A stretch of 64,000 nucleotides of DNA from Candidatus Woesearchaeota archaeon. GTDB lineage: Archaea > Nanobdellota > Nanobdellia > Woesearchaeales > GW2011-AR4. The position numbers and the translations under genes are program-made. Positions 1,993 through 63,730 of the stretch are shown here, one piece after another. Numbering within the stretch: position 1 is the stretch's first letter; each line of letters opens with the position of its first letter. A model generated the notes under the pieces. It saw only the letters and a list, made by a program, of their open reading frames with translations. It did not search any database and was not told the origin of the DNA. The DNA is taken from the NCBI GenBank assembly GCA_016185945.1, contig JACPMR010000015.1:7256-71255 (forward strand), read 5' to 3'.

Positions 1993-2138
1993 TCAATCAC
2001 GTAGCGACCCATTTTCTGCTTAAGGTGATATGGGTGCCCCGCATACTTCTGTGGCACTATATTGCTTGCTTTAAAGTGCCTGAAGCACAAGCGGATTACT
2101 TTATTCACTTGTACATTTAAAAGTCGCTCTCGGGATTG
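1993..2138. repeat. GC-rich intergenic repeat element, copy A (TIR TCAATCACG ... CGGGATTG, core GATATGGGTGCCCCGCATACTTC)
   Basis: Shares terminal motifs and the GGGTGCCCCGCATAC core with copies at 13120, 23896, 36335, 45966 and 63551; lies in a divergent intergenic region. Confidence 0.65.
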
Positions 2139-2257
2139 TTATTTTTATTTTAATGAGATTTTTATTATACTTTTGGAATTAGTTTAATTTTATCAAATTG
2201 GTCCATATATACCAACAAATAAACTTTATAAACTATACTTCTTTCATTTTTGAGTAT

Positions 2258-3496
2258 ATGAATAAGCAGACTTTTAGAAATAAAAACATTGTAATTGGAG
2301 TTACTGGAGGGATTGCATGCTACAAAGTTCTTGACTTGATAAAAGAATTGCGGAACAATGGCGCAGATGCACATGTAATCATGACAGAGAATTCCATGCA
2401 TTTTGTGGATATTAAAGATTTTGAAAAGGCATCTGGAAATGAAGTGCATACAACATTGTTTCATCCAAAGATAAATTATGTTGAATACATCAAGAAAAAC
2501 AAACAAATAAAGCACATTTCATTGGCTGACATTGCTGACTTGTTTCTGGTATGCCCTGCAACTGCCAATATAATAGGGAAAATAGCAAATGGAATTGCAG
2601 ATGATTTGCTTTCCACTTCCATAACTGCAACTATTGCGCCTGTCCTTATATGCCCTGCAATGAATGTCAAGATGTGGAAAAATGCCATTGTGCAGGAGAA
2701 TGTCAAAAAATTAAAATCTTTAAATTATCATTTTGTCGAGCCGGAATATGGGGAACTGGCATGCGGCTATAAAGGGGTTGGGCGGCTTGCAAACTTGAAA
2801 GGGATTATTGAAAGAGTGGGTTTATTGCTTAAACAAAGAAATGATTTGAAAGGGAGAAAAATTCTTGTTACAGCAGGAGCAACTGTTGAGGAAATAGATC
2901 CTGTGAGAGTAATAACGAACAAAAGCTCGGGCAAAATGGGAACAGGCATTGCAGAGCAGGCATTTTTGAGGGGGGCAGATGTTTTTTTATTGAGAGGGTA
3001 TAATTCAATAGAGTCAAACTATAACATCAAAGAAGAAAAATTTACGACAGTGCATGACCTATTTGACAAAATCAAAAAAAACATTAAAAAATTTGGTATT
3101 GTAATACATTCTGCTGCTGTCTCTGACTTTGCAATCAACAATAAGCAAAACAAAAAGATAAAAAGTAACAAAGAACTGCATCTTGAATTAACTCCCACGA
3201 CAAAGATATTTGAAAGGTTAAAGAAATTAAATAAAAGAATATTTCTGGTTGGCTTTAAGGCAGAGTATAATGTCAGCAAAAATGATTTAACAAACAGCGC
3301 TTTTAACCTACTGAAATCTGCCGATGCCGACTTGGTTGTTGCCAATGACGTAGGCAAGACGAACATGGGATTTGATGTTGATACAAATGAGGTTTTTGTT
3401 GTAGACAAAAATAAAAATTTTTTACATATAAAATTAGCTGATAAAAGAATTATTGCTGACAAAATTTTAGATGTTATAGTTGAGAAAATAAAATGA
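2258..3496 (+). CDS. coaBC: bifunctional phosphopantothenoylcysteine decarboxylase / phosphopantothenate-cysteine ligase
   Basis: N-terminal flavoprotein motif NIVIGVTGGIACYK; C-terminal CoaB motif ILVTAGATVEEIDPVRVITNKSSGKMG; start taken at MNKQTF rather than the upstream ORF-track Met. Confidence 0.85.
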   Translation: MNKQTFRNKNIVIGVTGGIACYKVLDLIKELRNNGADAHVIMTENSMHFVDIKDFEKASGNEVHTTLFHPKINYVEYIKKNKQIKHISLADIADLFLVCPATANIIGKIANGIADDLLSTSITATIAPVLICPAMNVKMWKNAIVQENVKKLKSLNYHFVEPEYGELACGYKGVGRLANLKGIIERVGLLLKQRNDLKGRKILVTAGATVEEIDPVRVITNKSSGKMGTGIAEQAFLRGADVFLLRGYNSIESNYNIKEEKFTTVHDLFDKIKKNIKKFGIVIHSAAVSDFAINNKQNKKIKSNKELHLELTPTTKIFERLKKLNKRIFLVGFKAEYNVSKNDLTNSAFNLLKSADADLVVANDVGKTNMGFDVDTNEVFVVDKNKNFLHIKLADKRIIADKILDVIVEKIK

Positions 3497-5075: not shown

Positions 5076-7148
5076 ATGGTAAAGCGCATGGACATTCTGG
5101 AATGGGTTTTTAGGGAAAGGCCTTGGGAACAGCAATTGTCCGAGGTTGAGGCGCTAAGAAGCTCTATTAAGGCACAATTGATATTATTTGATGATTTGTG
5201 GAGAGCTCATCAAACAAAGTTATCAGCAATAAAAGCAATAGCCGAAGGATATCTTCCTTATTTAAAAGATATTCCAGAATTAAATAACATAATAATAACT
5301 AATTTTAAGAAAATACTAGAAGGGATAAATTTCAAAGTTCTGATTAAAAAAATTTTGTACGAATCTACTGAAAGACTGCATGAGATTGAAGTTTTTGTTT
5401 GGAGATATGGTGGAGCAAGTCTTCCAGCATGGGATCCTACTACTGGGGAAAAGATTGTACCAAAAGTGGAAATAAAACCCTATAATATAGAAAGTGCAAA
5501 AAGAGCAATATGGAGCATTGTGAAAGACAAACAAGAGTTGGAAGATTTCATTAGAGATGCCTCAAAACAATTGCTGCCGGAGTTAGAAGCATTAAAGAAA
5601 CTTTACAATGAACAACTAGAACCATTCTTGAGGGAACAGTCAGACAAGGCTGGAAGCGGCATATGGACTGGTTTTAATACAGATGAAAATGAAAGATATT
5701 GGAAGCAAGAAGGTGAAATTATTTTACAAATGAAGAGGATTCTAAGTGACATAATAAATAAGACAATTGTAATGGCTAGACTATGGAGCAGAGTAGAGAT
5801 TGAGGAGCTAAAAACAAAAGAAGAATTCATAAAAGAAGTAGGACAAAAAGTAAGAAAAAAAGTGGGGGTTATGCTGATATCTCAAATATCAGGAACACCT
5901 TATCAAATGAGTGAATTTGAGAATTTCCTAAAAAGCATGGGCTACATAACCTATAATGTAAGGCTTCCTGGACATGCAACTTCTTTAGAGGAATTGTTTA
6001 ATACGCCAGTTGACGAAATTGAAAGATTTTTAATAAGCCAATTCAATTTTTTCTATCAAGCTATGAAAAAAATAAACAATGGTGACGGCAGATTTTATAT
6101 TGCAGGAAATTCCCTTGGCGCTATGATGCCATTACATATAATGGCAAAAAGCTGGAAAGTCGCCATAAAAACAGAAAACTCAGCTAAAAAATTTAATGAA
6201 AAAATTGGTGAAACTGTGACAATACACCCTTATCAAGATATGGTTAAAGGAATTATTTCAATCTCGGCAGCAACAAGCCTTGCCGCAGGTCCACTTCCAT
6301 TTGGAGTTGGGCCACCTATGATTAATCTTGGTACAAAGGTAGCAAAAAATCCTATTGCCTCAAAAATATTAACGCCTATAATGGCTCTTTTAGCAGGCAG
6401 AAAAATACGCAAAGAAGGCATAGTAGATTATGCGGGTTCTGTACATATAAAGATTGAGGGGATTAAGAAAAGAATAGACCCTGACCTCGAACCTGATAGA
6501 TTTTATGAAGCGGTAAGAAATGAGATTAAGCCACTAATTCAAGGAATTTACAGAAAAAAGATAGCTAAAATCAATAATCTAAAACTCAAGAACATAATAA
6601 ATAAAAAGATTGAGGAGATTAAACAAGAAATCAACCCAAATCTTTATCCTGATAGATTTTATGAAACAGCAAAGAAAGAGATTGAATTAATTAGAGAGAC
6701 TTTTAGAGGAATGTCAACTGAGATTAGCGAGATGGAACTTAACAGTATGGTTGAACAGGTAATAGATAATGTAAAAAAGGGACTACATGCATTTGCTGGC
6801 GAAAGTTTGATGGGTGTAAGGCCACTACAAGAAAAAATGCGTGGACAGTCTGTTAAAACATTACTAGGCGGTGTATCCAAATTAATATCACAATTAAGGG
6901 AAGATGTAAAACATATTTATATACCGATTCTTATACTTCAGGGACTTCATGACAGTATAACCCACCCTTCAAGCGCAGATTATATTTATAATAATGTTAA
7001 AACAAATCCAAAATTCAAGAAAAAAAGAATGTTAGAAGGTTCAGGACACACGCCACAGTTAGACTTCGATAAAGATATAGTGTTCGAAGAATCTGTCAAA
7101 TTTATTGAGATGGTAGAAGAAAGTGAAAAAGTGCCTGTATATGGCTAA
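5076..7148 (+). CDS. large alpha/beta-hydrolase-fold protein with N-terminal domain of unknown function
   Basis: 690 aa; nucleophile elbow GNSLG, and C-terminal LQGLHDS and GSGHTP consistent with an Asp/His triad; internal duplicated segment (IDPDLEPDRFYEAVRNEIK / INPNLYPDRFYETAKKEIE) inside a long cap insertion. Confidence 0.5.
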   Translation: MVKRMDILEWVFRERPWEQQLSEVEALRSSIKAQLILFDDLWRAHQTKLSAIKAIAEGYLPYLKDIPELNNIIITNFKKILEGINFKVLIKKILYESTERLHEIEVFVWRYGGASLPAWDPTTGEKIVPKVEIKPYNIESAKRAIWSIVKDKQELEDFIRDASKQLLPELEALKKLYNEQLEPFLREQSDKAGSGIWTGFNTDENERYWKQEGEIILQMKRILSDIINKTIVMARLWSRVEIEELKTKEEFIKEVGQKVRKKVGVMLISQISGTPYQMSEFENFLKSMGYITYNVRLPGHATSLEELFNTPVDEIERFLISQFNFFYQAMKKINNGDGRFYIAGNSLGAMMPLHIMAKSWKVAIKTENSAKKFNEKIGETVTIHPYQDMVKGIISISAATSLAAGPLPFGVGPPMINLGTKVAKNPIASKILTPIMALLAGRKIRKEGIVDYAGSVHIKIEGIKKRIDPDLEPDRFYEAVRNEIKPLIQGIYRKKIAKINNLKLKNIINKKIEEIKQEINPNLYPDRFYETAKKEIELIRETFRGMSTEISEMELNSMVEQVIDNVKKGLHAFAGESLMGVRPLQEKMRGQSVKTLLGGVSKLISQLREDVKHIYIPILILQGLHDSITHPSSADYIYNNVKTNPKFKKKRMLEGSGHTPQLDFDKDIVFEESVKFIEMVEESEKVPVYG

Positions 7149-13037: not shown

Positions 13038-13119
13038 AAGGTAAAAGAAGAAATGATTGTTTATAAAGATTGTTGAATTAAATTTAAAATTCATTGACAA
13101 AAATAATAAAATAAATTAA

Positions 13120-13341
13120 CAATCAGCGACCCATGCACTTCCATGAAGTAAAATGGGTGCCCCGCATACTTCTTCCTGCACTATATTGCAGGCGATAAAG
13201 TGCAACTGCGTGGCATGTGAGCGAGTTCGCTGTTGCGTGCGAGAACGCTCGCACGCTCGCGTTCAGGTCGAGCTCACTCGCATGTCACTGGCTGTGGTTC
13301 CCTCATCGCAAAGGCGGCTACAGGGAAGCCCCGTGATTGAA
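13120..13341. repeat. GC-rich intergenic repeat element, copy B (long form with extra GC hairpins)
   Basis: CAATCAGCGACCCATG ... AAAATGGGTGCCCCGCATACTTC ... hairpins GCGTGCGAG-AACG-CTCGCACGC and GAGCTCACTCGC ... GGCTGTGGTTCCCTCATCGCAAAGGCGGCTACAGGGAAGCCCCGTGATTGAA; TIR CAATCA.. / ..TGATTG. Confidence 0.7.
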
Positions 13342-13406
13342 ATAAATAATTTAATCATTGTTTTTAGGAAGCCTCTTTGATTGAATTATAAATTTATTAA
13401 TGCTTT

Positions 13407-15296
13407 TTACACCACATTCACATTCATTATCTGCTCAACTTTTTCAATTCCGTCGCTTACTGTAACTTTAATAACTTTTGTGCCTTTGCTTGTGAATGTT
13501 CTTTGATGGCTGGAAGTTGCCTTATACTTTTCCAAAAGCCCAAAGTTCCATGTGTAAGTCAGTTCATCTCCATCGTCGTCAACTGCTTTCACAAATAAAA
13601 GAACAGGCTGATTTGCTCTTGCTATTACGCTTTTTGTCGAATCAATTATTTTAGGCGCCCTGTTTTTATCCGTTACCTCAACTTTTGCAATTTGCCTTGT
13701 CTCTGCCTTGCCATCGCTTGCAACAAAAATCAAGTCAAGCTTCTTTGTTTCCTTTTTATTTGCTATATCAAAACTTGGTGTCCACAAGAATGCATTTCCT
13801 TTAATTGAATAGTCCTCTGGAGCATTATCAATCCTGAATGTCATTTCATCCCCGTCTGGGTCGTGGGCATTTAGAAGTATTGCAATATTGTCGCCTTCCA
13901 TTGCTTTTACACTCTCAATCTTGCCGAACAATGGCGCCCTGTTTGTTTGCTGTATGTTAATCTGCACAAACTTTGATGTTTCAAGCAAGCCGTCGCTTGC
14001 AGTTACTTTTACATAATAAATTCCTGCATCATCATAGCCTGAATTGAAAGTGTCAGAATCCATAAAGCCGGAGTATCTTAAAGTTATCTTATTTTCATCC
14101 AAGTCATATGCTTTTGGCACAATTTTTAATGTTTCGCCCTCATTTATTGCTATGGGCTCCATGTCTTCAATTAGGGGGGCTCTATTTACATCCTTGACTG
14201 TGATTATTATATTTTGAATAATTTTCTTGTCTTTTGAAGATGCAATAAACTGAACATAGAAGCTCTTGCTCAAAACCCTGAACTTGTCCATAACTTTATC
14301 TACGAAGCCCTCTTTCCTTACTGTGTCAAAATTTGTTTTCCATGCGAATACATTGCCTTCAAGCATTGCGCCTTCTGGCAGATTGTTTGCAGAATAAGTT
14401 ATTTCATCTCCGTCAGGCTCATTTGCACTTAGTGTTATTTTTACTTCCTCATTCTCATTTATTACTTTGTTCTCAACTTTCTCAAAAAAAGGCGCTCTGT
14501 CAACATCATTTACGATCACCTTAACAATTTTGTCGCCGCTGAAGCCTTTGCCTTCTGCATGAACTTTGAATTCATAAGCGCCTGCATCCTGATAAGCAGT
14601 CTTCCACTCATTCTTGCTTAGCGGCTCTGAAATGGAGTAAGCCAAGCCGTATTTTTCAAAATTGGGTAGCTTTAACTTAACAACCTCATTTTCATTAACA
14701 GCAACATCGCTTATGCCATTTAACAAACCTTCAACATCAACATTCTGTGCATTAACTTGCCATTCCTTGCTTGCTGAACTTATTACATCAGAAACAGAAG
14801 CGGTTATTCTATGAGAGCCAGCGTCGTTATAGGTTGTGTCATAAGTGAATTCCTGCCCATCCGCGACTTTTTTGTCGTCCAAAAACCACTCGTAGCTTAA
14901 AGCATCTTTGTTTAAATCACTTGCTGAAACTTTAAATTCAATAGAATCGGTTTCCTTAATGCTTAAAGTATCCTGCCTTGGGCTGAACGAATCTATCTTT
15001 GGGCTTTCTTCTTTCTTGTTGACAACAATCAGCACTTCCTGCGATGTCTCTGTAACGCCGTCAGAAACAGTTATTGTGGTTTTATGCTCGCCTGCATCTC
15101 CGTAACCAGTTTGCCATTCGCCGTTTTCATTGAGAGGAGGAGCGTAAGTTATCGTAAGCTTGTCCGCATCAGGGTCTGCTGCATTCGGCACTAGGCTTAT
15201 CTTTTCAGTTTCCTGGATTACAAAAGTAGTGGCTGAATACACAAGATGGGGGAATATTAAAAAGATGATTAGCAATAATACAATCCTTTTATTCAT
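13407..15296 (-). CDS. secreted surface protein with tandem cadherin-like/Ig-like Ca-binding repeats
   Basis: 629 aa; N-terminal signal peptide; repeated ~95-aa units with NRAPLF/NRAPKI starts and DPDGDE/DDDGDELTYTW motifs. Confidence 0.6.
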   Translation of the reverse strand: MNKRIVLLLIIFLIFPHLVYSATTFVIQETEKISLVPNAADPDADKLTITYAPPLNENGEWQTGYGDAGEHKTTITVSDGVTETSQEVLIVVNKKEESPKIDSFSPRQDTLSIKETDSIEFKVSASDLNKDALSYEWFLDDKKVADGQEFTYDTTYNDAGSHRITASVSDVISSASKEWQVNAQNVDVEGLLNGISDVAVNENEVVKLKLPNFEKYGLAYSISEPLSKNEWKTAYQDAGAYEFKVHAEGKGFSGDKIVKVIVNDVDRAPFFEKVENKVINENEEVKITLSANEPDGDEITYSANNLPEGAMLEGNVFAWKTNFDTVRKEGFVDKVMDKFRVLSKSFYVQFIASSKDKKIIQNIIITVKDVNRAPLIEDMEPIAINEGETLKIVPKAYDLDENKITLRYSGFMDSDTFNSGYDDAGIYYVKVTASDGLLETSKFVQINIQQTNRAPLFGKIESVKAMEGDNIAILLNAHDPDGDEMTFRIDNAPEDYSIKGNAFLWTPSFDIANKKETKKLDLIFVASDGKAETRQIAKVEVTDKNRAPKIIDSTKSVIARANQPVLLFVKAVDDDGDELTYTWNFGLLEKYKATSSHQRTFTSKGTKVIKVTVSDGIEKVEQIMNVNVV

Positions 15297-15328: not shown

Positions 15329-16363
15329 TTATTTTTTCTGCACTATGTCTGTTATAACAGGCGGCCTGTTGACATTCTCAACAGTTATTGCCAATTTCTG
15401 CTCTGTTGTGTCCTGCCCGTCAGATGCCGTTATAGTAACTTCATAAGTGCCTGCACTTGCATAATCTGTCTGCCATGTGAACGCATTGTCTTCCTGCGCA
15501 AACCTGTTGTCGCTGATTGAGTATGCTATTGAATCCCTATCATCATCTGTTGCCAATGCTGTTATGACAATCTTGTCTGTCTCTTTTGCGGATATGTCTT
15601 CTAATTTCTCCAAAACCGGCTGCCTGTTCACATTTTTGATATCCACCGACCATATCTTGCTTGTGCTTGACAAGCCATCAGACACTTCCACCTTGATTGT
15701 ATGTGTGCCTGCATCCTCGTAAGTTGATTGGTAGGTATATTTGTCTTCATTGCCTACGTCAGTGCCGTCAAACTTCCAGGCATATGACAAAGAATCTTTA
15801 TTTAAATCGCTTGCTGTGACGGTAAATTCAATTGCTTGGGTTTCATCAATTGCCAAGCCGCTTTCGATTGGCTTTGCGCTGTCGATTGTTGGCGCCTCTT
15901 CTTTTTTGTTTACAATTATCAAAACATCTCTTGCAGTTGTTGATTCCCCATCTGATACCGTAACTGTGACTGTGTATTCGTCTGCATCTCCATAGTTTGT
16001 TTGCCATTCGCCGTTTTCGCTTAATGGCGATGTAAATGTGAAAACAAGGCTTGTGTCTCTGTCAGGGTCTTCTGCTCTTGGTGATAAGCTTACCAAATCA
16101 GTTTCCTGAACAACCACAACAACTGGCTTTTCCCCTGTTGGTTTTTCCATTATTTCTTCTTTAACCTCGACTTTGGGCTCTTCTTCCTTGGTTGCTTCGC
16201 CAGTCACTTCGGGCTTTTCTTTTGTAACATTTTCCATACTTACATTTTCAGCTGGCTTTGTAGCATTAGGAGCACCATACAAAGTTTGATATACTTCACA
16301 ACTGCTTAACAAGAATACAGAAACAATTAGCAATGCCACCAATTTTTTATTAAAGTCCATCAT
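15329..16363 (-). CDS. lipoprotein-like surface protein with cadherin-like/Ig-like repeats (paralog of adjacent gene)
   Basis: 344 aa; signal peptide with LLSSC lipobox-like motif; Glu/Lys/Pro-rich linker then repeats homologous to 13407..15296 (NRQPVL, NRPPVI, VSDG motifs). Confidence 0.6.
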   Translation of the reverse strand: MMDFNKKLVALLIVSVFLLSSCEVYQTLYGAPNATKPAENVSMENVTKEKPEVTGEATKEEEPKVEVKEEIMEKPTGEKPVVVVVQETDLVSLSPRAEDPDRDTSLVFTFTSPLSENGEWQTNYGDADEYTVTVTVSDGESTTARDVLIIVNKKEEAPTIDSAKPIESGLAIDETQAIEFTVTASDLNKDSLSYAWKFDGTDVGNEDKYTYQSTYEDAGTHTIKVEVSDGLSSTSKIWSVDIKNVNRQPVLEKLEDISAKETDKIVITALATDDDRDSIAYSISDNRFAQEDNAFTWQTDYASAGTYEVTITASDGQDTTEQKLAITVENVNRPPVITDIVQKK

Positions 16364-16594: not shown

Positions 16595-16649
16595 AACAAA
16601 TAATGGAATAATATTTAATTTATAAAGTTTATTAGAAGGAAAAATATAG

Positions 16650-17570: not shown

Positions 17571-17728
17571 AACATTGGTGGTGTTAACTTATATTTAAGC
17601 ATTACTAAGCTATAGGGGCATGAAGTTTTGAGATAAAAGAATCGTTTAAATAGGTTTCGTTAAAGTAAAATTGTGATTTCTCAGAAACAAATTCAACCCG
17701 TTGCCTTCGGCAACAATATTTACTGCTC

Positions 17729-17758
17729 GGTGTCGCTTGTCTGCCATTCAGCGACACC
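17729..17758 (-). terminator. GC hairpin immediately downstream of the FKBP gene
   Basis: GGTGTCGC-ttgtctgccattca-GCGACACC, 8-bp perfect stem, 8 nt after the stop at 17767; a second hairpin GTTGCC-TTCG-GGCAAC at 17700-17715; no clear U-tract. Confidence 0.3.
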
Positions 17759-17766
17759 TCGCCTGT

Positions 17767-18827: not shown

Positions 18828-18917
18828 CTATGTAATACATATGTAATACGGAAGTATTTAAAGGTTTTGGGTAGGAATATAGGAAATATTTAAATTATCA
18901 AAACTTATCCTGTATAT

Positions 18918-19703: not shown

Positions 19704-19738
19704 AAAATCAAAATTTTTAAAGGAATTCAGATTAATTT

Positions 19739-23814: not shown

Positions 23815-23895
23815 AAGAAAATAGTATTCTTAGCAACTTAAAAATCTTTTTATGTGTTATAAGTTTATACGCAATTAAAATATAAATAAAAAATT

Positions 23896-24044
23896 CAATC
23901 ACGATGGCGACCCATGCGCTTCCTAAGCTAAAATGGGTGCCCCGCATACTTCTTTGGCACTTTATCATCAGCAATCAAGTGCAAGCATCAGAGGCTGTGG
24001 TTCCCTTATCACGATGGTATAGACAGGGAAGCCCAGTGATTGAA
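23896..24044. repeat. GC-rich intergenic repeat element, copy C
   Basis: CAATCACGATGGCGACCCATG ... AAAATGGGTGCCCCGCATACTTC ... CAATCAAGTGCAAGCATCAGAGGCTGTGGTTCCCTTATCAC ... CAGGGAAGCCCAGTGATTGAA; clear TIR CAATCACG / CAGTGATTG. Confidence 0.7.
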
Positions 24045-24914: not shown

Positions 24915-25000
24915 ATTGTTGCGATTTCCGCTGAGTTGAGCGAGCGAGATATGAACGCGAGCTTGCGAGCGTTCTCGCAATCGCCATGCAAGCATCGCCT
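24915..25000. repeat. GC-hairpin module of the repeat family (copy D, partial)
   Basis: GCTGAGTTGAGCGAGCGAG ... TTGCGAG-CGTT-CTCGCAA ... CCATGCAAGCATCGCC; shares the GAGCGAG hairpin module with copies B and K. Confidence 0.5.
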
Positions 25001-34928: not shown

Positions 34929-35034
34929 TACTAATAAATCTAAACTTGTTGCTTTTAAATCTTTCTCAAAATGTTTGAAAATATTAAAAATTCGTTCAAT
35001 AAATACTTCAATAATATATATCAACAATCACGAG

Positions 35035-35172
35035 AGCTTCCTTTAGAAGTAAGCATGATGAAGGAGACCTGCTTTTGCAGAAGGCACTTTCTATCGCAGC
35101 AATCAAGTGCAGGAAGAAGAGGCTGTGGCTCCCTTACCACAAAAGCAGCTACAGGGAAGCCAGATTTTTGAA
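35035..35172. repeat. GC-rich intergenic repeat element, copy E
   Basis: CAATCACGAGAGCTTCC ... GAAGTAAGCATGATGAA ... CAATCAAGTGCAGGAAGAAGAGGCTGTGGCTCCCTTACCACAAAAGCAGCTACAGGGAAGCC; right end degraded (CAGATTTTTGAA). Confidence 0.65.
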
Positions 35173-36076: not shown

Positions 36077-36334
36077 TTTAGTATGTTGAGCTGTTATAAT
36101 CCTGGTTCGGAGTGTAATCTACCTGCTTCTCGTTCTTTGCAGAAGGATTGTCCTCTGCTATTGCGCATGCCAAACACATTTTAACCCCCAACTTTTGTAA
36201 TATGTTATTACTTCGTAGTGATATAACTAGTATATAAAGTTTTCGATAAATATAGTAAAATAGATAATTTCAATATAGAAAATAAGTACTATAAACAATT
36301 ATTAAAGTATATCCAACAAAAACAGAAACGACTT

Positions 36335-36458
36335 TTGTAAGTAGGCATGATAAAAGTAAACCGTTGTGAGTTAAGTGCTATAGTGCTAAGCGTTCAAGCA
36401 CTGCAGCAGTATGCGGGGCACCCATATTACATGGTTGTGAACATGGCGCTGATTGATT
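36335..36458. repeat. GC-rich intergenic repeat element, copy F (rearranged; core in inverted orientation)
   Basis: GTAAGTAGGCATGATAAAAG (forward, as in copy E) followed by GCAGCAGTATGCGGGGCACCCATATTAC (reverse complement of the GGGTGCCCCGCATAC core) and the terminal GCGCTGATTGATTG (reverse complement of CAATCAATCAGCGC). Confidence 0.6.
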
Positions 36459-36495
36459 GTTCTTATAATTGGTTATTGTGATTAAATTTATTCTA

Positions 36496-41944: not shown

Positions 41945-42150
41945 CAATCACTAACGAGAGCAATTTTTTGGGATTAAATTGCATTAAAACAATGAGATTA
42001 AATCAATCCCGAGAGCGTCCTTTATAAGTAATCGCGAATAAGGAAACCAGCTTTTGCTATCGCACTTTATCTTTAGCAATCAAGTGCAGATAGAAGTGGC
42101 TGCGGTTCCCTTATCACAAAAGCAGCTACAGGGAAGCCCTCGTGATTGAA
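41945..42150. repeat. GC-rich intergenic repeat element, copy G (possibly two nested/tandem units)
   Basis: CAATCACTAACGAGAGC ... second TIR-like CAATCCCGAGAGCG at about 41994 ... CAATCAAGTGCAGATAGAAGTGGCTGCGGTTCCCTTATCACAAAAGCAGCTACAGGGAAGCCCTCGTGATTGAA. Confidence 0.7.
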
Positions 42151-44142: not shown

Positions 44143-44335
44143 AACAAGTTTTGTATAGATTTATCTATATAAATATATATGATTTTAACTCCTTGCCTTA
44201 ACCCAGAAATAAAGGTAAATCGCAAATCCAATAAACAGCAACAGGTTAATAATATGAAAAGCAATAGGCAGCCATTTCAGAATTTTTATCTTTGTTTCTT
44301 TTTTCATTATTTGGATTTTTGTTTATTATTATTTA

Positions 44336-44475
44336 TAGGCGAGGCGGGGGTAGCTGGCGAGTGAGTCTCTCACGAGCCTCACAAGTCGGGTGCCGCCGAG
44401 CAGTAAAATTTGCGAAGCGGATTGAAATATTTTATATCGAAATGTTTTATTTTAAGTTTTCCTTTAGTTAATATG
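44336..44475. repeat. GC-hairpin repeat element, copy H (shares a module with copy J)
   Basis: GCGAGGCGGGGG ... GGCGAGTGAGTCTCTCACGAGCCTCAC ... TTTGCGAAGCGGATTGAAAT ... TGTTTTATTTTAAGTTTTCCTTTAGTTAATAT; the 3' half is near-identical to 58450-58515. Confidence 0.6.
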
Positions 44476-45912: not shown

Positions 45913-45965
45913 TTTTTACAAAATATTAATTTGATTTTTTATTGGTCAATAATAAGTTCTAAAAC

Positions 45966-46137
45966 CATCAAGCAACCCTTTTTCTTCCAGATAGTGATAT
46001 GGGTGTCCCGCAGTAACAATTGCACTTGATTGCTTTGCTTTATAGTGCAACATTCAAAAGCGGTTTACTTTCAACGGCAAAGTCCGTTGACACCTTGTGG
46101 GCATAAAGCCACATTTACAAAAGTCGCTCTTGATTTG
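45966..46137. repeat. GC-rich intergenic repeat element, copy I
   Basis: CATCAAGCAACCC ... GATATGGGTGTCCCGCAGTAAC ... CAACGGCAAAGTCCGTTGACACCTTGTG (shared with copy K) ... AAAAGTCGCTCTTGATTTG (matches the copy A end AAAAGTCGCTCTCGGGATTG). Confidence 0.65.
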
Positions 46138-52271: not shown

Positions 52272-52284
52272 ATTTTGCTCAAGC

Positions 52285-52512
52285 TTAATACTTAAGCGTC
52301 AGTATCAATATTGACACGACTAGCCCGAAAATGACAATTGTTTCTGGTATTACAGTAAGGATTAATCCCTTACCGAAGAGCTCTTCCTTTTCGGCCATTG
52401 CACCGATTGCAGCAACGCCTATGTTCTTTTCAGCCCATGCTGCCGCAAATGCGGAACTAGCAAGCGCTATTGCAGAGCTCAATGCCAAAAGCCCACTACT
52501 CAATTCAACCAT
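52285..52512 (-). CDS. atpK: A-type ATP synthase proteolipid subunit K (c)
   Basis: 75 aa, two TM helices, GLILTVIPETIVIFGLV with the conserved Glu. Confidence 0.8.
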   Translation of the reverse strand: MVELSSGLLALSSAIALASSAFAAAWAEKNIGVAAIGAMAEKEELFGKGLILTVIPETIVIFGLVVSILILTLKY

Positions 52513-52526
52513 TTTTCTTTACCTCC

Positions 52527-56484: not shown

Positions 56485-56624
56485 GCGCCGGTAGCTCAGC
56501 TTGGTGAGGCTAGCGAGCACTCGCTTTGCTTCGTGCAAATAGAGCGAAAGGTTCCTAACCTTTAGGCCGGGGGCATGATTGAGTACATGCTCTTTCATCC
56601 CGAATTCGAATCCTCCCCGGCGCG
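56485..56624 (+). tRNA. tRNA-Arg (anticodon CCU) with two non-canonical introns (D-arm ~36 nt; T-arm position 53/54 ~31 nt)
   Basis: Acceptor GCGCCGG/CCGGCGC (7 bp); U8-A9-GCUC-AGCUUGGU D-arm start; anticodon arm AAAGG-UUCCUAA-CCUUU at 56547-56563 (U33, anticodon CCU, A37); T-stem 5' GGGGG at 56569-73 separated by 31 nt from the T-loop UUCGAAU + CCUCC; D-arm 3' half GAGC-G at 56542-46 follows a 36-nt insertion containing the GCGAGCACUCGC hairpin. Confidence 0.6.
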
Positions 56625-56975
56625 TTTATAAATTTAAAAATAAATATAAATCTAACTATATGATACCCATTATCTGCTTCAGCGATGTGGGTACCCCTCA
56701 TATAACTTGTTCCACCTAATGATGAACAATAAAGTGCATTAAGCACACTGCCTCGTACTGATGAGGAACCCATGGAGTAGTGCTATCTAGCATAGCATGA
56801 AAAATTGTATCCGAAGCGAGAGAGCAGAAAAAATTATTTGAAATCGAAGTACATTCTTAAATTACAAGAAACATTGCCAACCACAAAAATCTTTTAGCAA
56901 ATTGTTGTGGTTGGCAAGATAGCAAACCACAGCTATTATACCCATCTATTTCTGTGGTTTGCTATATAAGTAAAT

Positions 56976-58411: not shown

Positions 58412-58515
58412 TAGTGAGCGAGGTTAATACCTCGCGAGGGTAACATTTGCCGAAGGCGGATTGAATTGGTAGTTATTATGTTTTATTTCAAGTTTTTCTT
58501 TAGTTTATATTTTTG
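58412..58515. repeat. GC-hairpin repeat element, copy J
   Basis: GTGAGCGAGG-TTAATA-CCTCGCGAGGG hairpin, then TTTGCCGAAGGCGGATTGAATT ... TGTTTTATTTCAAGTTTTTCTTTAGTTTATAT, near-identical to the 3' half of copy H. Confidence 0.6.
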
Positions 58516-58623: not shown

Positions 58624-58863
58624 TTATTTCCTTTCCCAAACAACAACATTATCTTTAGCGACTTTTTTTATCCTATGCAATGGGATGTTTGTTTCTTCCT
58701 CATTGTCCAAAACCATAAAAGAACCTTCCAGTTTTTTAATTTTTGTATAAGGGATTTTTATTAATGTTTTTTGAATCCTGTCAAAATAAAAAAGTGTATA
58801 TTGCTCTGGGTTTTCCCTTTTGTCCCATTTTATCTTGTTGAGCAAATCTTTGATTGTAATCAT
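58624..58863 (-). CDS. DUF504-like small protein
   Basis: 79 aa; KWDKRENPEQYTLFYFDR ... ETNIPLHRIKKV ... VVVWER resembles the archaeal DUF504 pattern. Confidence 0.45.
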   Translation of the reverse strand: MITIKDLLNKIKWDKRENPEQYTLFYFDRIQKTLIKIPYTKIKKLEGSFMVLDNEEETNIPLHRIKKVAKDNVVVWERK

Positions 58864-60217: not shown

Positions 60218-60478
60218 TTACTTCCCAACCCAATTATAAACCCAAGCAAAAATAATTCCTGTGATTAAGCCACCAACAAAAAGAACAACTAAGCCGATAA
60301 CAAAAGCGTCAATTGTTATCACAGGCGGCTGTAAAGCAAGCATGTTGTAAGTGACTTTCTTTGCAAGATTAACAACAAAGTTGGGAAATAGCCATATTAC
60401 AATTGTGCGGATTACATAACAAATCACCAAGAATACACCCAAAGCAAGTCCTAATGATAATGGTTTTAGTTTCGCCAT
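60218..60478 (-). CDS. small 2-3 TM membrane protein
   Basis: 86 aa hydrophobic ORF. Confidence 0.35.
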   Translation of the reverse strand: MAKLKPLSLGLALGVFLVICYVIRTIVIWLFPNFVVNLAKKVTYNMLALQPPVITIDAFVIGLVVLFVGGLITGIIFAWVYNWVGK

Positions 60479-60511: not shown

Positions 60512-60815
60512 TTTCAATCCGCCTGCGGCAAAAATTTGGATATTAACTTATTATTTCAATCCGTCGTGCTTCGCACGACAATTTCTTGGCGCGTCGGCAT
60601 TGACTTGTGAGCGAGTGAGACGAGCTCACTCGCATGCCACTGCTGTGGAAGTTTATTGTTTTCATGCTCCACCTCCACGCCTATTTATTTTGACTGCCAG
60701 CGATACGTCCCTGAGCTGGGTCCCCATCAACGACAAAGTTCGTTGACACCTTGTGCAAGTGGGATTTAACAATCCCACGGACCTTGCAGATGCTGGGAAG
60801 CGAAGTTGTTTGAAA
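60512..60815. repeat. composite GC-rich repeat element, copy K (about 300 bp, several hairpin modules)
   Basis: TTCAATCCGCCTGCGG; TTCAATCC-GTCGTGC-TTC-GCACGAC hairpin; GAGCGAGTGAG-ACGAG-CTCACTCGC hairpin plus CATGCCACTGCTGTGG (as in copy B); AACGACAAAGTTCGTTGACACCTTGTG (as in copy I). Confidence 0.65.
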
Positions 60816-60851: not shown

Positions 60852-63455
60852 TTACCCCATATAGCCCGGCTTTTCCTCAAGCATCTGTTTTGCCCTTGTA
60901 GCAGTGAAGTGATCATGTAGTTCTTCATATGCCTTTTCAACGTCTTTTGTAACGCTGGGTCTTACCTTTTCAAGTGCCTTTTCAAAATGCCTTTTGTAGA
61001 TTTCCTTTGAATTTATGTCTTCCCTCAATGCAAGTATTGCTGCTTCCCTGCATACTGCTTCGATGTCAGCACCAACATAGCCGTCTGTTTTTTTGGTGAG
61101 ATATTTTAATAAATCTTCTCTGCTTTTCAAATTTTCACCATCAACTAACTTATCGCTTTCGTACTCAATTGTTGATTCTCCTTTCTCTGTTTTTGCAGCA
61201 AGCATTTTCTTCTTTATCGGCTGCTCCTCAACAGCAATAGGCATGCCTTTTGTATGAACTTTAAAAATTTCAAGACGGGTTAGCTCGTCTGGAATTGGAG
61301 TCAAAATCATCCTGTCAAATCTTCCTGGGCGCAGCAATGCAGTATCCACAATGTCAGGCCTGTTTGTTGCTGCGATTATGACAACATCATGCAAGTCCTC
61401 CAAGCCGTCAATCTCTGTCAAAAGCTGATTTACAACTCTTTCACTTACATGGCTGTCAGAGCTTGCTCCTCTTCTTGGAGCAAGAGCATCAATCTCATCA
61501 AAGAATATAATGCATGGGCTTACTTGTCTTGCTTTCTTGAAAACTTCTCTAACTGCCTTTTCGCTTTCGCCAACCCATTTGCTTAAAAGCTCAGGCCCTT
61601 TAACCAAGATAAAGTTTGCCTCGCTTTCATTTGCTACCGCCTTTGCAAGCAAGGTTTTTCCAGTTCCAGGAGCGCCAAACAACAATATGCCTTTTGGAGG
61701 TCTTACTCCCAATCTTTTGAATGACTCTGGATGCTTCAAAGGCCATTCAACTGCCTCAATTAATTCCTGCTTAACGATTGCCAATCCGCCTATGTCTGCC
61801 CATTTGACATTTGGAATTTCAACAAGAACTTCTCTAAGCGCAGATGGACGTACAACCTTCAATGACTCTTTAAAGTCGTGCTGCGTGATCACAAGCTTTT
61901 CAAGCAGTTCCTTTGGCAATGGCTCATCTTCCTTCAGCCTTATATCAGGAAGCACTCTTCTCAAAACAATCATTGCTGCTTCCTTTGCCAAAGAAGCCAA
62001 GTCAGCTCCAACAAAGCCATGGGTTATTTCTGCCAATTCCTTAAGAGAAACTATTTTCAAGTTATAGTTCAGTTTGTCCATGTATCTCTTTAATTTTGAT
62101 ATTTCAATTTTTTTAAACAATTCGTTCTTTTCGGGGTTTTCAACAAGATACTTGTTTATTGTCTTTTCCAATCCCCTTGAGTTTGCATCTTTGTATCTAA
62201 GCAAGTTCAAGATTGCTTCCTTGTACTCTAACTCAAATTCGCTTTCTTTAACTATGTTTTCCTTTGTGTACAATGGCATATTTCTTGTGTGAATTTTCAG
62301 GATGTTTAATCTTCCCTCTTTACTTGGCACTCCAATCTCTATTTCCCTATCAAATCTACCGGGCCTTCTCAAAGCAGGATCGAGGATGTTTGGAACATTA
62401 GTTGCTGCTATCACAACAACCTTTCCTCTACTCTGCAAGCCATCCATTAATGCGAGCAACTGTGCAACTACTCTTCTCTCAACCTCTCCTCTTGTTTCCT
62501 CTCTTTTTGAGGCAATTGCATCAATCTCGTCAATGAAAATTATGGAAGGGGCGTTCTTTTCTGCTTCCTCAAATTTCTTTCTTAAGTTTTCTTCACTTTG
62601 TCCATAATACTTAGACATTATTTCAGGACCATTAATCAAAATAAAATGAGAGTTTGTTTCGTTTGCAACTGCTTTTGCCAATAATGTTTTTCCAGTTCCA
62701 GGAGGTCCATGCAATAAAACTCCTTTTGGCGCTTCTATGCCCAGTCTTTCAAAAATTTCGGGATGCTTTAACGGCAGCTCAACCATTTCCCTTACTTTCT
62801 TGATTTCGTCTTCCAAGCCGCCTACATCCTCATAGGTTATGTCTGGAACTCTTTCTTCCTCTATTTCAACTGCCTCTGAGCGGAACTCTATTTCAGTTGA
62901 GTCAAGGATAATGACTGGCTGTTTTGGGTTTGTGTCAACAACAACAAACTTTATGTCGCCAAAGCCAATTCCCATCATGCTTTCATCAAGAATGCTGAAA
63001 ATGTCTTCATCAAAGAAAGGATTGGACATCATTGTTGTTTTTCTTCTTCTTGCTCCTCCCAAAGAGACTATATCTCCTTTCACAACAGCCCTGCCTAGAA
63101 GCCCTTGCTTGAATATTTCTGGAGAAGCCCTTATGACAATGCCTTTTCTTGCGGGAGCTATAATGACTTTCTTTGCCTCCTTGACAAGCGCTTTTCTAAT
63201 CTTTACTATTTCTCCTATACCAGTCTTGGCGTTCTTTCTGATAATACCATCCATTCTTATGATATTAAGTCCTATATCACCTGGATAAGAACGGTCTGCA
63301 ATGGCAACTGTTTTACGCTCGCCTTCAATCTCAACTATGTCGCCTGCTTTTATGTCTACTTCAGATAAGTAGCCAGAATCAATCCTTACAATGCCCTTGT
63401 TTACATCATCTTGGATGGCTTCTGCAACCTTAAGCTTTAGTTCTTTTTCCACCAT
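60852..63455 (-). CDS. cdc48: CDC48/VAT AAA+ ATPase with lineage-specific insertions
   Basis: N-domain, two AAA modules (Walker A GPPGTGKT twice, Walker B IIFIDEID / [11 protein letters not shown]); 867 aa versus about 740 typical, extra Lys/Glu-rich segments in the helical lid of D1 (~80 aa) and D2 (~60 aa). Confidence 0.9.
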
Positions 63456-63550
63456 TTTGTGTTAACTAATGAATAGGTATAGTGTTTTATAAATCTTTTG
63501 TTTAAAGATTTTTTAGGTTAATCTTATACATTAACAAATTTTAATGTAAT

Positions 63551-63730
63551 AATCCGAGACCCTTCGAAAACCAAAGATTTTCGATAGCTCGCAATTCCTA
63601 CGGAATTGCTTTGCATTGGATAGCTTCGCTGAAATGGGTGCCCAAAAAATAATCTTTGCACTTTATTCCTTACATTATAGTGCTACTGGCGTATGCATGG
63701 TACCTGTGCTTGATTCACGGGAGAAAGAGG
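63551..63730. repeat. GC-rich intergenic repeat element, copy L
   Basis: AATCCGAGACCC ... GCAATTCC-TACG-GAATTGC hairpin ... GAAATGGGTGCCCAAAA ... CTTGATTCACGGGAG (reverse-TIR-like). Confidence 0.55.

What the first reader, a model, noticed from the sequence alone, without database searches (positions are those of the whole stretch)
1993..63730. Dense mosaic family of GC-rich, hairpin-rich intergenic repeats with terminal inverted repeats (MITE-like), at least 12 copies in 64 kb
- Twelve intergenic segments share mixed-and-matched modules. Their approximate positions are 1993-2138, 13120-13341, 23896-24044, 24915-25000, 35035-35172, 36335-36458, 41945-42150, 44336-44475, 45966-46137, 58412-58515, 60512-60815 and 63551-63730.
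- Module (i) is a left end, CAATCACG(A/T)(A)GCGACCC or CAATC(A/C)CGAGAGC.
- Module (ii) is a core, (A)AAATGGGTGCCCCGCATACTTC, present in reverse complement in the 36335 copy.
- Module (iii) is CAATCAAGTGCA ... GAGGCTGTGGTTCCCTTATCACAAAAGCAGCTACAGGGAAGCC.
- Module (iv) is a right end, C(G)GTGATTGAA, or GCTCTCGGGATTG.
- These ends are reverse complements of the left ends, so the elements carry terminal inverted repeats.
- Inserted between these modules are perfect GC hairpins such as GCGAGTGAG-ACGAG-CTCACTCGC, GCGTGCGAG-AACG-CTCGCACGC and GTCGTGC-TTC-GCACGAC.
- The elements are strongly GC-rich in an AT-rich genome, always intergenic, 100-300 bp long, and occur in both orientations; no transposase is present in the window.
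- This looks like a non-autonomous transposable-element (MITE) family or a novel dispersed structured-RNA family; nothing I can match to a named element.
Basis: seen in the sequence. Interest (0 to 1): 0.8.

Follow-up and report, generated by a model that had tools for sequence, protein, structure and literature searches.

The report
Modular hairpin repeat family in Woesearchaeota

Summary
In detail: it is far beyond chance, and there are more copies than listed.

- **Basic unit.** A 40-55 nt "arm" hairpin: a 3-4 bp foot, a one-sided 4-nt bulge, a 5-6 bp stem and a variable loop. The best-conserved arm is GCGACCCAT-N14-22-ATGGGTGCCCCGCATAC.
- **Spread.** A metagenome scan found the same arm on 47 groundwater contigs. 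At least some are Woesearchaeota relatives.
- **Structure.** The stems show dense compensatory covariation.
- **Insertion.** Copies are insertions. Two relatives have overlapping genes where the window and a 91%-identical relative carry different elements. Other copies are retained at orthologous sites across about 79% nucleotide divergence.
- **Flanks.** An A-run lies upstream and a T-run downstream.
- **Not found.** No transposase, Rfam family, CRISPR array or viral copy.

Best reading (about 0.5): an archaeal REP/REPIN/BIME-like repeat family, probably also serving as terminator or insulator modules. The mobilising enzyme and target-site duplications remain unknown. A dispersed structured-RNA family is not excluded.

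The parts
1992..2138 (+). Inverted-doublet element A. Left arm P2 at 2004-2042, central hairpin at 2046-2085, right arm at 2090-2128. Terminal complementarity between 1994-2008 and 2123-2138. Lies between divergent genes, 59 nt upstream of the CoA-biosynthesis operon.
   Evidence: Model R1 58.9 bits, E 9e-19. Coordinates. BLASTN to 23894-23965. Neighbouring gene families.
13114..13344 (+). Doublet B. P2 at 13126-13165, central hairpin at 13177-13204, nested GC hairpin block at 13210-13288, right arm (GGCT..TCCCT/AGGGA..AGCC) at 13290-13330, then CGTGATTGAA.
   Evidence: R1 70.1 bits.. The nested block matches 24952-24979 and 60607-60640.
17692..17766 (-). It is co-oriented with the downstream gene 16791-17570(-).
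   Evidence: Sequence. Same layout as the S-type copies in L131-L165.
23894..24044 (+). Doublet C. P2 at 23907-23945, central hairpin at 23957-23982, right arm at 23993-24033, ends CAATCACG and CAGTGATTGAA. Flanked by AAAATT on both sides.
   Evidence: R1 68 bits.. Orthologous copies in L167 (94% nt) and L159 (79% nt). A 96%-identical copy sits in another flanking context in L136.
24915..25000 (.). Cluster of small GC hairpins (H-unit GCGAGCTTGCGAG-CGTT-CTCGCAATCGC at 24957-24984). No convincing ORF covers it.
   Evidence: BLASTN 13238-13265 to 24979-24952, 96%. Six-frame check. The same unit is nested in L132 and L140.
35025..35172 (+). Doublet with a variant left arm (TCCTT/AAGGA stem, GACC bulge) at 35028-35069, central hairpin at 35084-35110 and right arm at 35121-35161. 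Its 5' end abuts the start codon of gene 34476-35027(-).
   Evidence: 82% identity over 137 nt to 42004-42138, E 1e-23..
36327..36461 (-). Doublet in reverse orientation. P2-like arm at 36413-36449, right arm (AACG..ACTTT/AAAGT..CGTT) at 36327-36365.
   Evidence: R1 37.2 bits, E 1e-10..
41945..42150 (+). Extra 5' end fragment at 41945-41961 plus AT-rich filler. Then a doublet at 42004-42150: left arm 42004-42048, central hairpin 42062-42087, right arm 42098-42138, CTCGTGATTGAA. Inserted between the PPase1 stop codon and the conserved PGK promoter.
   Evidence: The ortholog in L122 has compensatory changes and lacks 41945-42003. L121 has a 36-nt spacer and L120 a small gene at this place.
44335..44474 (+). 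S3 module at 44335-44426, with a nested hairpin in its stem. It is followed by a conserved AT-rich tail reaching 44474. It forms part of a 265-nt insert between ATP-synthase subunit D and a 40-aa ORF. Antisense to both genes.
   Evidence: The tail matches 58478-58510 at 91%. In L120 and L121 the same two genes abut or overlap with no spacer.
45960..46137 (+). Doublet with a diverged P2 (ATGGGTGTCCCGC) at 45972-46011, central hairpin at 46021-46049, and a right arm at 46059-46128 whose loop holds two extra hairpins.
   Evidence: R1 19.3 bits, E 5e-4.. 46071-46099 matches 60727-60755.
56650..56830 (+). P2 variant ATGATACCCAT..GTGGGTACCCCTCAT, with foot changes on both strands. Lies 25 nt downstream of an intron-containing tRNA.
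   Evidence: R1 17.7 bits, E 2e-3..
58414..58510 (+). Short S3-like module (GAGCGAGG-loop-CCTCGCGAGG, GAA-loop hairpin GCCGAAGGC, GGATTGAA) plus the same AT-rich tail as at 44442-44474. Antisense, between a 79-aa ORF and gatE.
60512..60815 (-). Composite region. Two GAA/GCAG-loop hairpins each followed by GGATTGAA (60512-60532, 60554-60585). An S3-like stem with a nested H-unit (60607-60640, start near 60684). A further hairpin block shared with 46071-46099. Co-oriented with gene 60218-60478(-); the last GGATTGAA lies 35 nt before its start codon.
63551..63730 (+). Copy whose P2 arm is split by inserted small hairpins (K-unit TTCGAAAACCAAAGATTTTCGA at 63563-63584). Core remnant ATGGGTGCCC at 63634-63643; central hairpin at 63658-63683.
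   Evidence: The same K-unit is nested at other positions in L131 and L164.

Best explanation
**What it is.**
- A clade-specific family of composite palindromic repeat elements, an archaeal counterpart of bacterial REP/REPIN/BIME-type repeats.
- The unit is an "arm" hairpin: a 3-4 bp foot, a 4-nt bulge on one strand, a 5-6 bp pyrimidine-rich stem and a 14-22 nt variable loop.
- Arms occur singly, as inverted doublets around a variable spacer with an optional central hairpin, or joined to other hairpin modules (S3 stem; GAA-loop hairpin plus GGATTGAA).
- Tiny GC hairpins are nested in the loops.

**Shown.**
- The copies are DNA insertions into intergenic spacers, including former operon junctions.
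- Copies differ between close relatives, and many persist long enough to accumulate compensatory substitutions. The hairpins themselves are therefore under selection.

**Inferred.**
- Copies are made in trans by an enzyme encoded elsewhere in the genome that recognises the folded arm, most plausibly on single-stranded DNA as in IS200/IS605 and REP-RAYT systems.
- Recombination between copies shuffles the modules.
- GC hairpins bracketed by an upstream A-run and a downstream T-run would stop archaeal RNA polymerase from either side. Retained copies probably therefore act as bidirectional terminators or insulators between transcription units.
- The S-type sits immediately upstream of the next gene's promoter.
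For: **Repeat family.**

**Same arm elsewhere.** It is on 47 groundwater metagenome contigs and in another Woesearchaeota MAG, L089.

**Doublet nature.** Model R1 hits the right arm in inverted orientation next to the primary hit in L130, L144 and L146, at 23.6-28 bits and E from 7e-5 to 1.5e-6. In the other copies the right arm has the same foot-bulge-stem design.

**Hairpins under selection.**
- Right arm: 8 of 9 pairs carry double changes. 65 cells against 17.8 +/- 4.5 in shuffles (0 of 500 as high). Covariation 0.729 against 0.259, and 0.275 or less for slid partners.
- Only 5.6% of dinucleotide shuffles allow such a hairpin, against 26 of 27 real copies.
- P2: GCG/CGC becomes GAG/CUC and C-G becomes U-A, with 99.4% of cells paired.
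- The ortholog pair window/L122 changes TCCTT/AAGGA to ACTTT/AAAGT.

**Insertion and turnover.**
- The ATP-D / 40-aa ORF junction overlaps or abuts in L120 and L121. It holds a 265-nt insert with S3 (antisense) in the window and a 300-nt insert with a sense doublet in L122.
- L154 has an antisense doublet upstream of PPase1.
- The PPase1-PGK spacer is 36 nt in L121 and 351 nt with an element in the window.
- The syntenic 22-kb loci L120 and L121 hold 0 and 1 copies.

**Persistence.** Element C is present at the same site in L167 (94% nt) and L159 (79% nt).

**Flanks.**
- An A5 run lies within 20 nt upstream in 29 of 47 copies, against 12% background.
- A T5 run lies within 20 nt downstream in 15 of 30, against 19% background.
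- The opposite runs are not enriched.

**S-type position.** Co-oriented with the downstream gene in 12 of 12 copies, ending about 30-50 nt before the ATG in most of them.

**Module exchange.** L134 and L147 are 99.8% identical up to the S stem and diverge at the terminal hairpin.

**No neighbouring transposase.**
Against: - No mobilising enzyme was found in about 400 kb examined. The rest of the 311-kb source contig and genome could not be read.
- No clean empty site from a near-identical genome was available, so insertion junctions and target-site duplications are unknown.
- The REP hallmark tetranucleotide GTAG/GTGG is absent.
- RAYTs are so far known only from bacteria.
- Nothing here distinguishes DNA hairpins from RNA hairpins. 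Mismatches in the stems give no G-U versus A-C asymmetry.
- The S-type orientation bias, its more stable sense-strand fold (11 of 12) and the conserved S3 loop (AATGGCAGAAAA) would also fit an RNA or promoter-linked function.
- The terminator role rests only on flank composition.
- P2 invariance in the metagenome loci is partly by construction, because they were fetched with that pattern.
- Alignment A6 was fitted by hand to the hairpin.
Confidence: 0.5

Rival explanations
1. A dispersed family of structured RNAs. These could be independent small-RNA genes or cis-acting UTR modules, for example transcript-end stabilisers or protein-binding leaders. Their hairpins would function in RNA, and copy number would have grown by duplication and recombination rather than transposition.
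For: - Dense compensatory covariation.
- Conserved single-stranded stretches (GCCCCGCATAC; S3 loop AATGGCAGAAAA).
- Retention at orthologous sites.
- GC-rich islands in AT-rich spacers.
- S-type copies are co-oriented with the downstream gene in 12 of 12 cases, and the sense strand folds better in 11 of 12.
Against: - P2-bearing copies occur in all four orientations relative to neighbouring genes.
- The doublet type folds better on the opposite strand, following GC skew.
- The conserved A/T box sits only 4-19 nt upstream of the arm, too close for an archaeal TATA box to start a transcript that includes the arm (spacing rule from my own knowledge).
- There is no Rfam match.
- Single arms, doublets, split arms and nested mini-hairpins are typical of repeat DNA rather than a functional RNA with a fixed architecture.
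- Independent, different insertions occupy the same spacer.
Confidence: 0.2
2. A classical MITE family: deletion derivatives of a TIR-bearing insertion sequence, moved by its DDE transposase, with target-site duplications.
For: - A subfamily carries CAATCACG(AGAGCGAC) opposite (GTCGCTCT)CGTGATTG ends.
- Copy C is flanked by AAAATT on both sides.
- ATGA is present on both sides of the insert at the ATP-D / small-ORF junction.
- Elements are 100-230 bp, non-coding and polymorphic between relatives.
Against: - Most copies in relatives lack these ends. Copy-specific terminal pairing is not above the mismatched-partner control.
- The interior is more conserved than the termini, and the stems covary.
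- Within the window, copies are only 80-90% alike in modules and unrelated in loops. This is unlike a recently active MITE burst.
- No transposase was seen.
- The direct repeats are short and A/T-rich, so they may be chance. The ATGA case may instead reflect selection to keep both the stop and the start codon.
Confidence: 0.15
3. Host-evolved regulatory DNA or RNA, such as strong hairpin terminators and promoter-upstream elements, with no mobility. The similarity would come from local duplication and convergent constraints.
For: - The A-run / hairpins / T-run layout.
- S-type modules end at a near-constant distance from start codons.
- Elements lie between a stop codon and the next promoter.
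Against: - The same 17-40 nt sequences occur at dozens of unrelated loci and in different genomes.
- Elements interrupt junctions that are gene overlaps in relatives.
- Different elements in opposite orientation occupy one spacer in 91%-identical genomes.
- A simple terminator does not need a conserved bulged arm.
Confidence: 0.1

Closest known systems
REP / REPIN / BIME elements of bacteria (E. coli, Pseudomonas), replicated by RAYT (TnpA-REP)
   Same: - Short imperfect-palindrome units in extragenic space.
- Units occur as singlets, as inverted doublets with a variable spacer, and in mosaics with other short motifs.
- No transposase lies next to the copies.
- Long persistence, with sequence diversity among copies.
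- Proposed roles in termination and insulation (for the definitions).
   Different: - The arms are longer (40-55 nt), with a one-sided 4-nt bulge and a large variable loop.
- There is no GTAG/GTGG tag. The foot is followed by ATAC.
- The host is an archaeon, where REPINs "have not been detected".
- No RAYT-like gene was seen in the DNA available.
BOX elements of Streptococcus pneumoniae and Correia elements of Neisseria (from my own knowledge)
   Same: - Modular or mosaic build from a few short boxes.
- 100-200 bp, intergenic, about 100 or more copies.
- They form hairpins and affect transcription of neighbouring genes (promoter and terminator effects).
- Correia elements have TIRs.
   Different: - No sequence relationship.
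- Correia elements have defined TA duplications and 26-bp TIRs in all copies.
- Here the ends are optional and the internal arm is the conserved part.
Archaeal MITEs and IS200/IS605-derived palindrome-associated elements (Sulfolobus SM1-4, Haloquadratum PATEs; from my own knowledge)
   Same: - Non-autonomous, intergenic, structured elements in archaeal hosts.
- IS200/IS605 ends are subterminal hairpins recognised on single-stranded DNA, and that family occurs in archaea.
   Different: - Those elements share their ends with identifiable IS copies in the same genome and are near-identical to each other.
- Here no parent IS, TnpA or TnpB was seen.
- Copies are old and covarying.
Small dispersed repeats nested in hairpin elements of heterocystous cyanobacteria (from my own knowledge)
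   Same: Very small hairpin units are inserted into the loops of larger repeat hairpins. The same small unit turns up in different hosts and at different positions: H- and K-units here.
   Different: Different organisms and sequences. The mechanism is unknown in both cases.

Membership tests
MITE (miniature inverted-repeat transposable element) | Terminal inverted repeats at both ends of every copy | tested here: inconclusive
   - A 15-16 nt TIR is present in copy A, and 7-9 nt CAATCAC/GTGATTG ends in a subfamily.
- These ends are absent from most copies in relatives.
- Mean longest complementary run is 5.5, against 5.16 +/- 0.28 with mismatched partners.
MITE (miniature inverted-repeat transposable element) | Target-site duplication of fixed length | tested here: inconclusive
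   - AAAATT flanks copy C on both sides.
- ATGA lies on both sides of the insert at the ATP-D / ORF junction.
- Other copies show nothing consistent.
- No empty site from a near-identical genome was available.
MITE (miniature inverted-repeat transposable element) | A cognate autonomous IS with the same ends and a transposase | tested here: inconclusive
   - None among the 30 largest window ORFs.
- No recurrent family among 71 neighbouring ORFs in metagenome loci, where only the 25 most frequent of 129 families were listed.
- No HUH-Y1 motif in window plus loci.
- The rest of the genome could not be read.
MITE (miniature inverted-repeat transposable element) | Small, non-coding, multi-copy, with presence/absence polymorphism | tested here: met
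   At least 14 copies or fragments in 64 kb. Insertions are absent from relatives.
REP / REPIN / BIME | Extragenic imperfect-palindrome unit present in many copies | tested here: met
   The P2 arm occurs 6 times in the window and on 47 metagenome contigs, always between ORFs.
REP / REPIN / BIME | Inverted doublets of the unit separated by a variable spacer | tested here: met
   Inverted second R1 hits in L130, L144 and L146. The right arm has the same foot-bulge-stem design in 26 of 27 copies.
REP / REPIN / BIME | Conserved GT[AG]G tetranucleotide at the 5' foot of the palindrome | tested here: not met
   The 5' side of the foot is an A-rich box with no conserved tetranucleotide. The 3' side is mostly ATAC, which reads GTAT on the other strand.
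REP / REPIN / BIME | A single-copy RAYT gene flanked by the repeats | not testable with these tools
   - Only 64 kb of the source genome was readable.
- No HUH-Y1 motif was found in about 400 kb.
IS200/IS605-derived non-autonomous elements | Subterminal hairpins on one strand, no TIR or TSD, insertion next to a fixed tetra- or pentanucleotide, strand bias with replication | tested here: inconclusive
   - Hairpins are present.
- 5 of 6 P2 arms in the window are on the + strand, too few to be significant.
- No fixed flanking oligonucleotide beyond the A-rich box.
- No TnpA or TnpB was seen.
Any Rfam RNA family | Match to a curated covariance model | tested here: not met
   In the window, only a tRNA scored at gathering threshold and nothing lay on the elements up to E = 5. 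Nothing on the elements in 13 related loci up to E = 1.
CRISPR array | Regularly spaced direct repeats with unique spacers | tested here: not met
   - No such array.
- The two hairpin-GGATTGAA units at 60512-60585 are 42 nt apart and differ in sequence.
- The likeness of hairpin plus ATTGAA to CRISPR repeat ends is from my own recollection only.
Integron attC sites | One site after each promoterless cassette, all in one orientation; R-box GTTRRRY | tested here: not met
   Elements lie between housekeeping operon genes in both orientations. Their ends are CAATC/GATTG.
Hairpin plus T-run terminator | Stable hairpin followed by an oligo-T tract on the transcribed strand | tested here: met
   T5 downstream in 15 of 30 copies against 19% background. 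A5 upstream (T5 on the other strand) in 29 of 47 against 12%. Actual termination was not tested.

The most novel reading that the evidence does not exclude
This would be the first REPIN/BIME-like system in Archaea. Bulged hairpin arms and their inverted doublets would persist vertically in reduced DPANN genomes. They would be copied in trans by a single-copy, possibly domesticated, hairpin-recognising enzyme (HUH-type or something new). They would also be co-opted as terminator-promoter cassettes that break up operons.
Probability: 0.25. Interest if true: 0.8.

Novelty: new variant of a known kind. Interest (0 to 1): 0.6.

Why it matters
- **Unexpected host.** DPANN archaea have very small, streamlined genomes. 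Yet about one spacer in five or six here carries a 100-230 bp structured repeat, and the same arm recurs across many groundwater contigs.
- **Domain boundary.** REPIN-type, vertically persistent hairpin replicators are stated not to be known from archaea. An archaeal analogue would extend that biology to a second domain and point to an unknown partner enzyme.
- **Genome organisation.** The elements split formerly overlapping operon genes and sit next to promoters. They may therefore shape transcription-unit boundaries in organisms whose gene regulation is almost unstudied.
- **Annotation.** The arm is a sharp sequence and structure marker for this clade. Left unannotated, it can be miscalled as short ORFs.

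Tried and rejected
- **Genome-collection scan.** The 17-mer ATGGGTGYCCCGCAKWA was too short for 596 Gb. L001-L119 are chance hits in unrelated bacteria, apart from L089, a Woesearchaeota contig that carries a real copy.
- **Exact-protein look-ups.** Window proteins were not on record, so the rest of the 311-kb source contig could not be fetched.
- **Viral contigs.** Both module patterns gave 0 hits.
- **Rfam.** No family matched the elements.
- **RNAalifold on a plain MAFFT alignment.** It recovered only P2, because MAFFT misaligns the covarying right arm. I replaced it with a hand-anchored, N-padded alignment and a shuffle null.
- **Riboswitch or leader idea.** Rejected, because the downstream genes are unrelated (CoA operon, tRNA, rpS15, pyrG, dnaK, zinc-ribbon protein).
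- **CRISPR, integron attC and hammerhead.** All rejected. A CUGAUGA near 56760 has no Rfam support.
- **G-U versus A-C asymmetry as a test for the RNA strand.** There were too few mismatches, and the MFE asymmetry simply follows GC skew.
- **Outward GATTGAA as a BRE-like promoter element.** 10 of 14 element ends face a gene start, which is not clearly above expectation. The native PGK promoter uses AAACC-TTTTAAAAAT instead.
- **Bacterial promoter/terminator scan.** Not informative for an archaeon.
- **Literature.** No description of these repeats or of the core sequence was found.

Full report
**Source and context.** The window encodes CDC48, Hel308, an A-type ATP synthase operon, GatD/GatE and two membrane pyrophosphatases. 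Its PPase1 is 100% identical to a protein annotated from a Candidatus Woesearchaeota (DPANN) MAG on a 311-kb contig. Overall GC is 36.6%.

- Self-BLASTN links the listed segments with E-values down to 1e-23.
- The 17-mer ATGGGTGCCCCGCATAC occurs four times, against 0.01 expected.
- A covariance model of the core arm (R1) finds six copies with filters off: 13114-13171+, 23894-23951+, 1992-2048+, 36407-36461-, 45960-46017+ and 56650-56705+.
- 24915-25000 is intergenic; no convincing ORF covers it.
- No tandem or CRISPR-like array exists.
- Rfam has nothing on the elements, even at E = 5.

**Anatomy.** The unit is an "arm" hairpin.
- The conserved left arm (P2) reads GCG | ACCCAT | loop of 14-22 nt | ATGGGT | GCCC bulge | CGC, followed mostly by ATAC. 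The loop often contains a small apical stem of varying sequence.
- The right arm reads outer 3-4 bp | 4-5 nt bulge | inner 5-8 bp | loop of 13-21 nt, for example AGCG-GATT-ACTTT...AAAGT-CGCT.
- Read on the other strand, the right arm has the same design as P2. In L130, L144 and L146 model R1 hits it directly, inverted and next to the primary hit (23.6-28 bits).
- The "TIR elements" are therefore inverted doublets of one hairpin type, with an optional central hairpin (GCACT...AGTGC). The "TIRs" are the feet of the arms plus an optional CAATCACGAGA / TCTCGTGATTG extension.
- Single arms also occur (L124, L125, L126, L135, L137, L150).
- A third architecture, the S-type, joins P2 to three further parts: an AT-rich linker; an S3 stem (GGCGAGG-stem-AATGGCAGAAAA-stem-CCGAGCA); and a small hairpin with a C-GAA-G loop followed by GGATTGAA.
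- S3 also occurs without P2 in the window (17692-17766-, 44335-44426+, 58414-58465+, within 60512-60684-).
- Tiny GC hairpins are nested in loops, and the same units recur in different genomes. The H-unit is at 13238-13265, 24957-24984, L132 and L140. The K-unit is at 63563-63584, L131 and L164.

**Relatives.**
- My only genome-collection scan was wasted on a pattern that was too short. It did, by luck, include one real copy in another Woesearchaeota MAG, L089.
- A specific metagenome scan (GCGAYCCAT-N14-22-ATGGGTGCCCCGCA) returned 47 contigs from groundwater and related samples, about 296 kb in all.
- The taxonomy of most of these contigs was not checked. L152/L154 carry an 81%-identical PPase. 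L122, L159 and L167 are syntenic with the window.

**Structure is under selection.**
- On a hand-anchored alignment of 28 right arms, 8 of 9 pairs show changes on both sides.
- That alignment gives 65 double-change cells against 17.8 +/- 4.5 in shuffles (0 of 500 as high). Covariation is 0.729 against 0.259, and 0.275 or less for slid partners.
- Because the alignment was fitted to the hairpin, I also ran a null. Only 5.6% of dinucleotide shuffles allow a hairpin of this quality, against 26 of 27 real copies.
- P2 is nearly invariant, partly by ascertainment. Its variants are nonetheless compensatory: GCG/CGC becomes GAG/CUC five times and C-G becomes U-A three times, with 99.4% of cells paired.
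- The S3 stem differs completely between copies while staying paired: GCAAAAT/ATTTTGC, GCATCGC/GCGATGC, GCGTTGC/GCAACGC, GTGTCGC/GCGACAC (read directly).
- The orthologous pair window 42004-42150 / L122 shows TCCTT/AAGGA changed to ACTTT/AAAGT.

**Insertion, turnover and persistence.**
- The 22-kb syntenic loci of two relatives (PPase 85% and 82% identical) contain 0 and 1 copies, against six in the matching part of the window.
- In L120 and L121 the ATP-synthase D gene abuts or overlaps a conserved 40-aa ORF.
  - The window has a 265-nt insert there, holding an antisense S3 module.
  - L122, 91% identical in the adjacent PPase, has a 300-nt insert with a sense doublet.
  - L154 has an antisense doublet upstream of PPase1.
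- The PPase1-PGK spacer is 36 nt in L121 and 351 nt in the window. There the element lies between the stop codon and a PGK promoter-like box (AAACC-TTTTAAAAAT) conserved in all relatives.
- Conversely, element C sits at the same site in L167 (94% nt) and L159 (79% nt). In L159 the central hairpin is absent and the right-arm stem differs.
- A 96%-identical copy of C lies in a different context in L136.
- L134 and L147 are 99.8% identical up to the S stem and then diverge, a recombination breakpoint inside an element.

**Flanks and orientation.**
- Upstream of P2 there is a G-free A-rich box, conserved to about position -19.
- A5 occurs within 20 nt upstream in 29 of 47 copies (background 12%). 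T5 occurs within 20 nt after the right arm in 15 of 30 (background 19%). The opposite runs are not enriched.
- P2-bearing copies occur in all four gene contexts.
- S-type copies are co-oriented with the downstream gene in 12 of 12 cases and end about 30-50 nt before its ATG in most of them. That spacing fits a position just upstream of a TATA box for leaderless or short-leader mRNAs. This is inferred from the sequences and from established archaeal promoter spacing.
- Two of the four S3-only copies in the window break the co-orientation rule.

**No partner gene.**
- No transposase was found in the 30 largest window ORFs.
- No recurrent family appeared among 71 neighbouring ORFs.
- No HUH-Y1 motif occurs in any ORF of 90 aa or more in about 400 kb.
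- There were no viral copies.

**Interpretation.** The family combines the marks of inserted repeat DNA with the marks of long-lived selected structure.
- Marks of inserted repeat DNA: the same sequence at unrelated loci and in different genomes; operon junctions split; different insertions in one spacer; split and nested copies; module shuffling.
- Marks of long-lived selected structure: covariation; orthologous retention; an interior better conserved than the ends.
- That combination, together with singlets, inverted doublets and mosaics, and with no adjacent transposase, matches bacterial REP/REPIN/BIME systems better than classical MITEs.
- It fails the REP sequence tag (GTAG).
- The partner enzyme is untested, and RAYTs are so far bacterial.
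- The A-run / hairpins / T-run layout suggests a bidirectional terminator or insulator role. This is inferred, not shown.
- I cannot tell DNA hairpins from RNA hairpins. Stem mismatches are too few, and the strand asymmetry in folding energy follows GC skew.
- C-GAA-G loops are known to be unusually stable DNA mini-hairpins (my own knowledge). That is a weak hint towards single-stranded DNA.
- A dispersed structured-RNA family remains a live rival at about 0.2.

**Novelty.**
- Literature searches found no description of these repeats or of the core sequence.
- I rate this a new variant of a known kind, of moderate to high interest.

Noticed in passing
window 56486-56630 (+): A tRNA-like gene (GCGCCGGTAGCTCAGCTTGGT ... 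TTCGAATCCTCCCCGGCGCG) that appears to carry two or more introns. Neither ARAGORN nor the Rfam tRNA model reports it.
   Followed up: partly
window 16640-16795 (-): A second intron-containing tRNA-like sequence (GTAGCTCAGAC ... GGTCACCAGTTCAAGTCTGGTCAAGGGCGC) next to the detected tRNA-Ile. It was not called by the tools.
   Followed up: no
window 44185-44307 (-): A conserved 40-aa hydrophobic ORF (MKKETKIKILKWLPIAFHIINLLLFIGFAIYLYFWVKARS) between ATP-synthase subunit D and PPase1. It is present in L120, L121 and L122, and its start overlaps or abuts the D-subunit stop in L120 and L121.
   Followed up: partly
window 46255-46500 (-) and 52272-52526 (-): Two paralogous ATP-synthase c (proteolipid) subunit genes, 81% identical over 94 nt. 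The extra one lies just downstream of subunit B, next to element 45960-46137. L122 has a different 183-aa ORF at this place.
   Followed up: partly
window 18900-21400: A very AT-rich island (25-28% GC) that encodes an Abi_alpha (abortive infection) domain protein at 18918-19703, plus ORFs with no Pfam match. It may be an acquired defence islet.
   Followed up: no
window 36853-44142; L120, L121, L154: A conserved block PPase1 - PGK - 423/432-aa protein with no Pfam match (window 38985-40283, opposite strand) - PPase2. The order is the same in the three relatives that cover it.
   Followed up: no
window 44442-44474 and 58478-58510 (+): The AT-rich tail after two S3 modules is conserved (91%) and begins with a possible mini-ORF (MFYFKFSFS* and MFYFKFFFSLYFCASCPT*). 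Further weak similarity continues beyond it, so the repeated unit may be longer than the GC-rich core.
   Followed up: partly
L134 1664-6430 versus L147 1-4762: The two contigs are 99.8% identical up to the S3 stem of an S-type element. They diverge exactly at the terminal hairpin, with different genes downstream. This is a rearrangement breakpoint inside the repeat.
   Followed up: partly
window 58624-58863 (-): A 79-aa ORF lies between gatD and gatE, with its start overlapping the gatD stop. My first ORF filter hid it behind a spurious + strand ORF.
   Followed up: no
window 6445-6509 / 6601-6665 and 14899-15128 / 15789-16018: An internal repeat within the 690-aa ORF 5076-7148. Separately, a shared segment (PKD/Ig domains were identified only in 15329-16363) between the adjacent surface-protein genes 13407-15296 and 15329-16363.
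   Followed up: no
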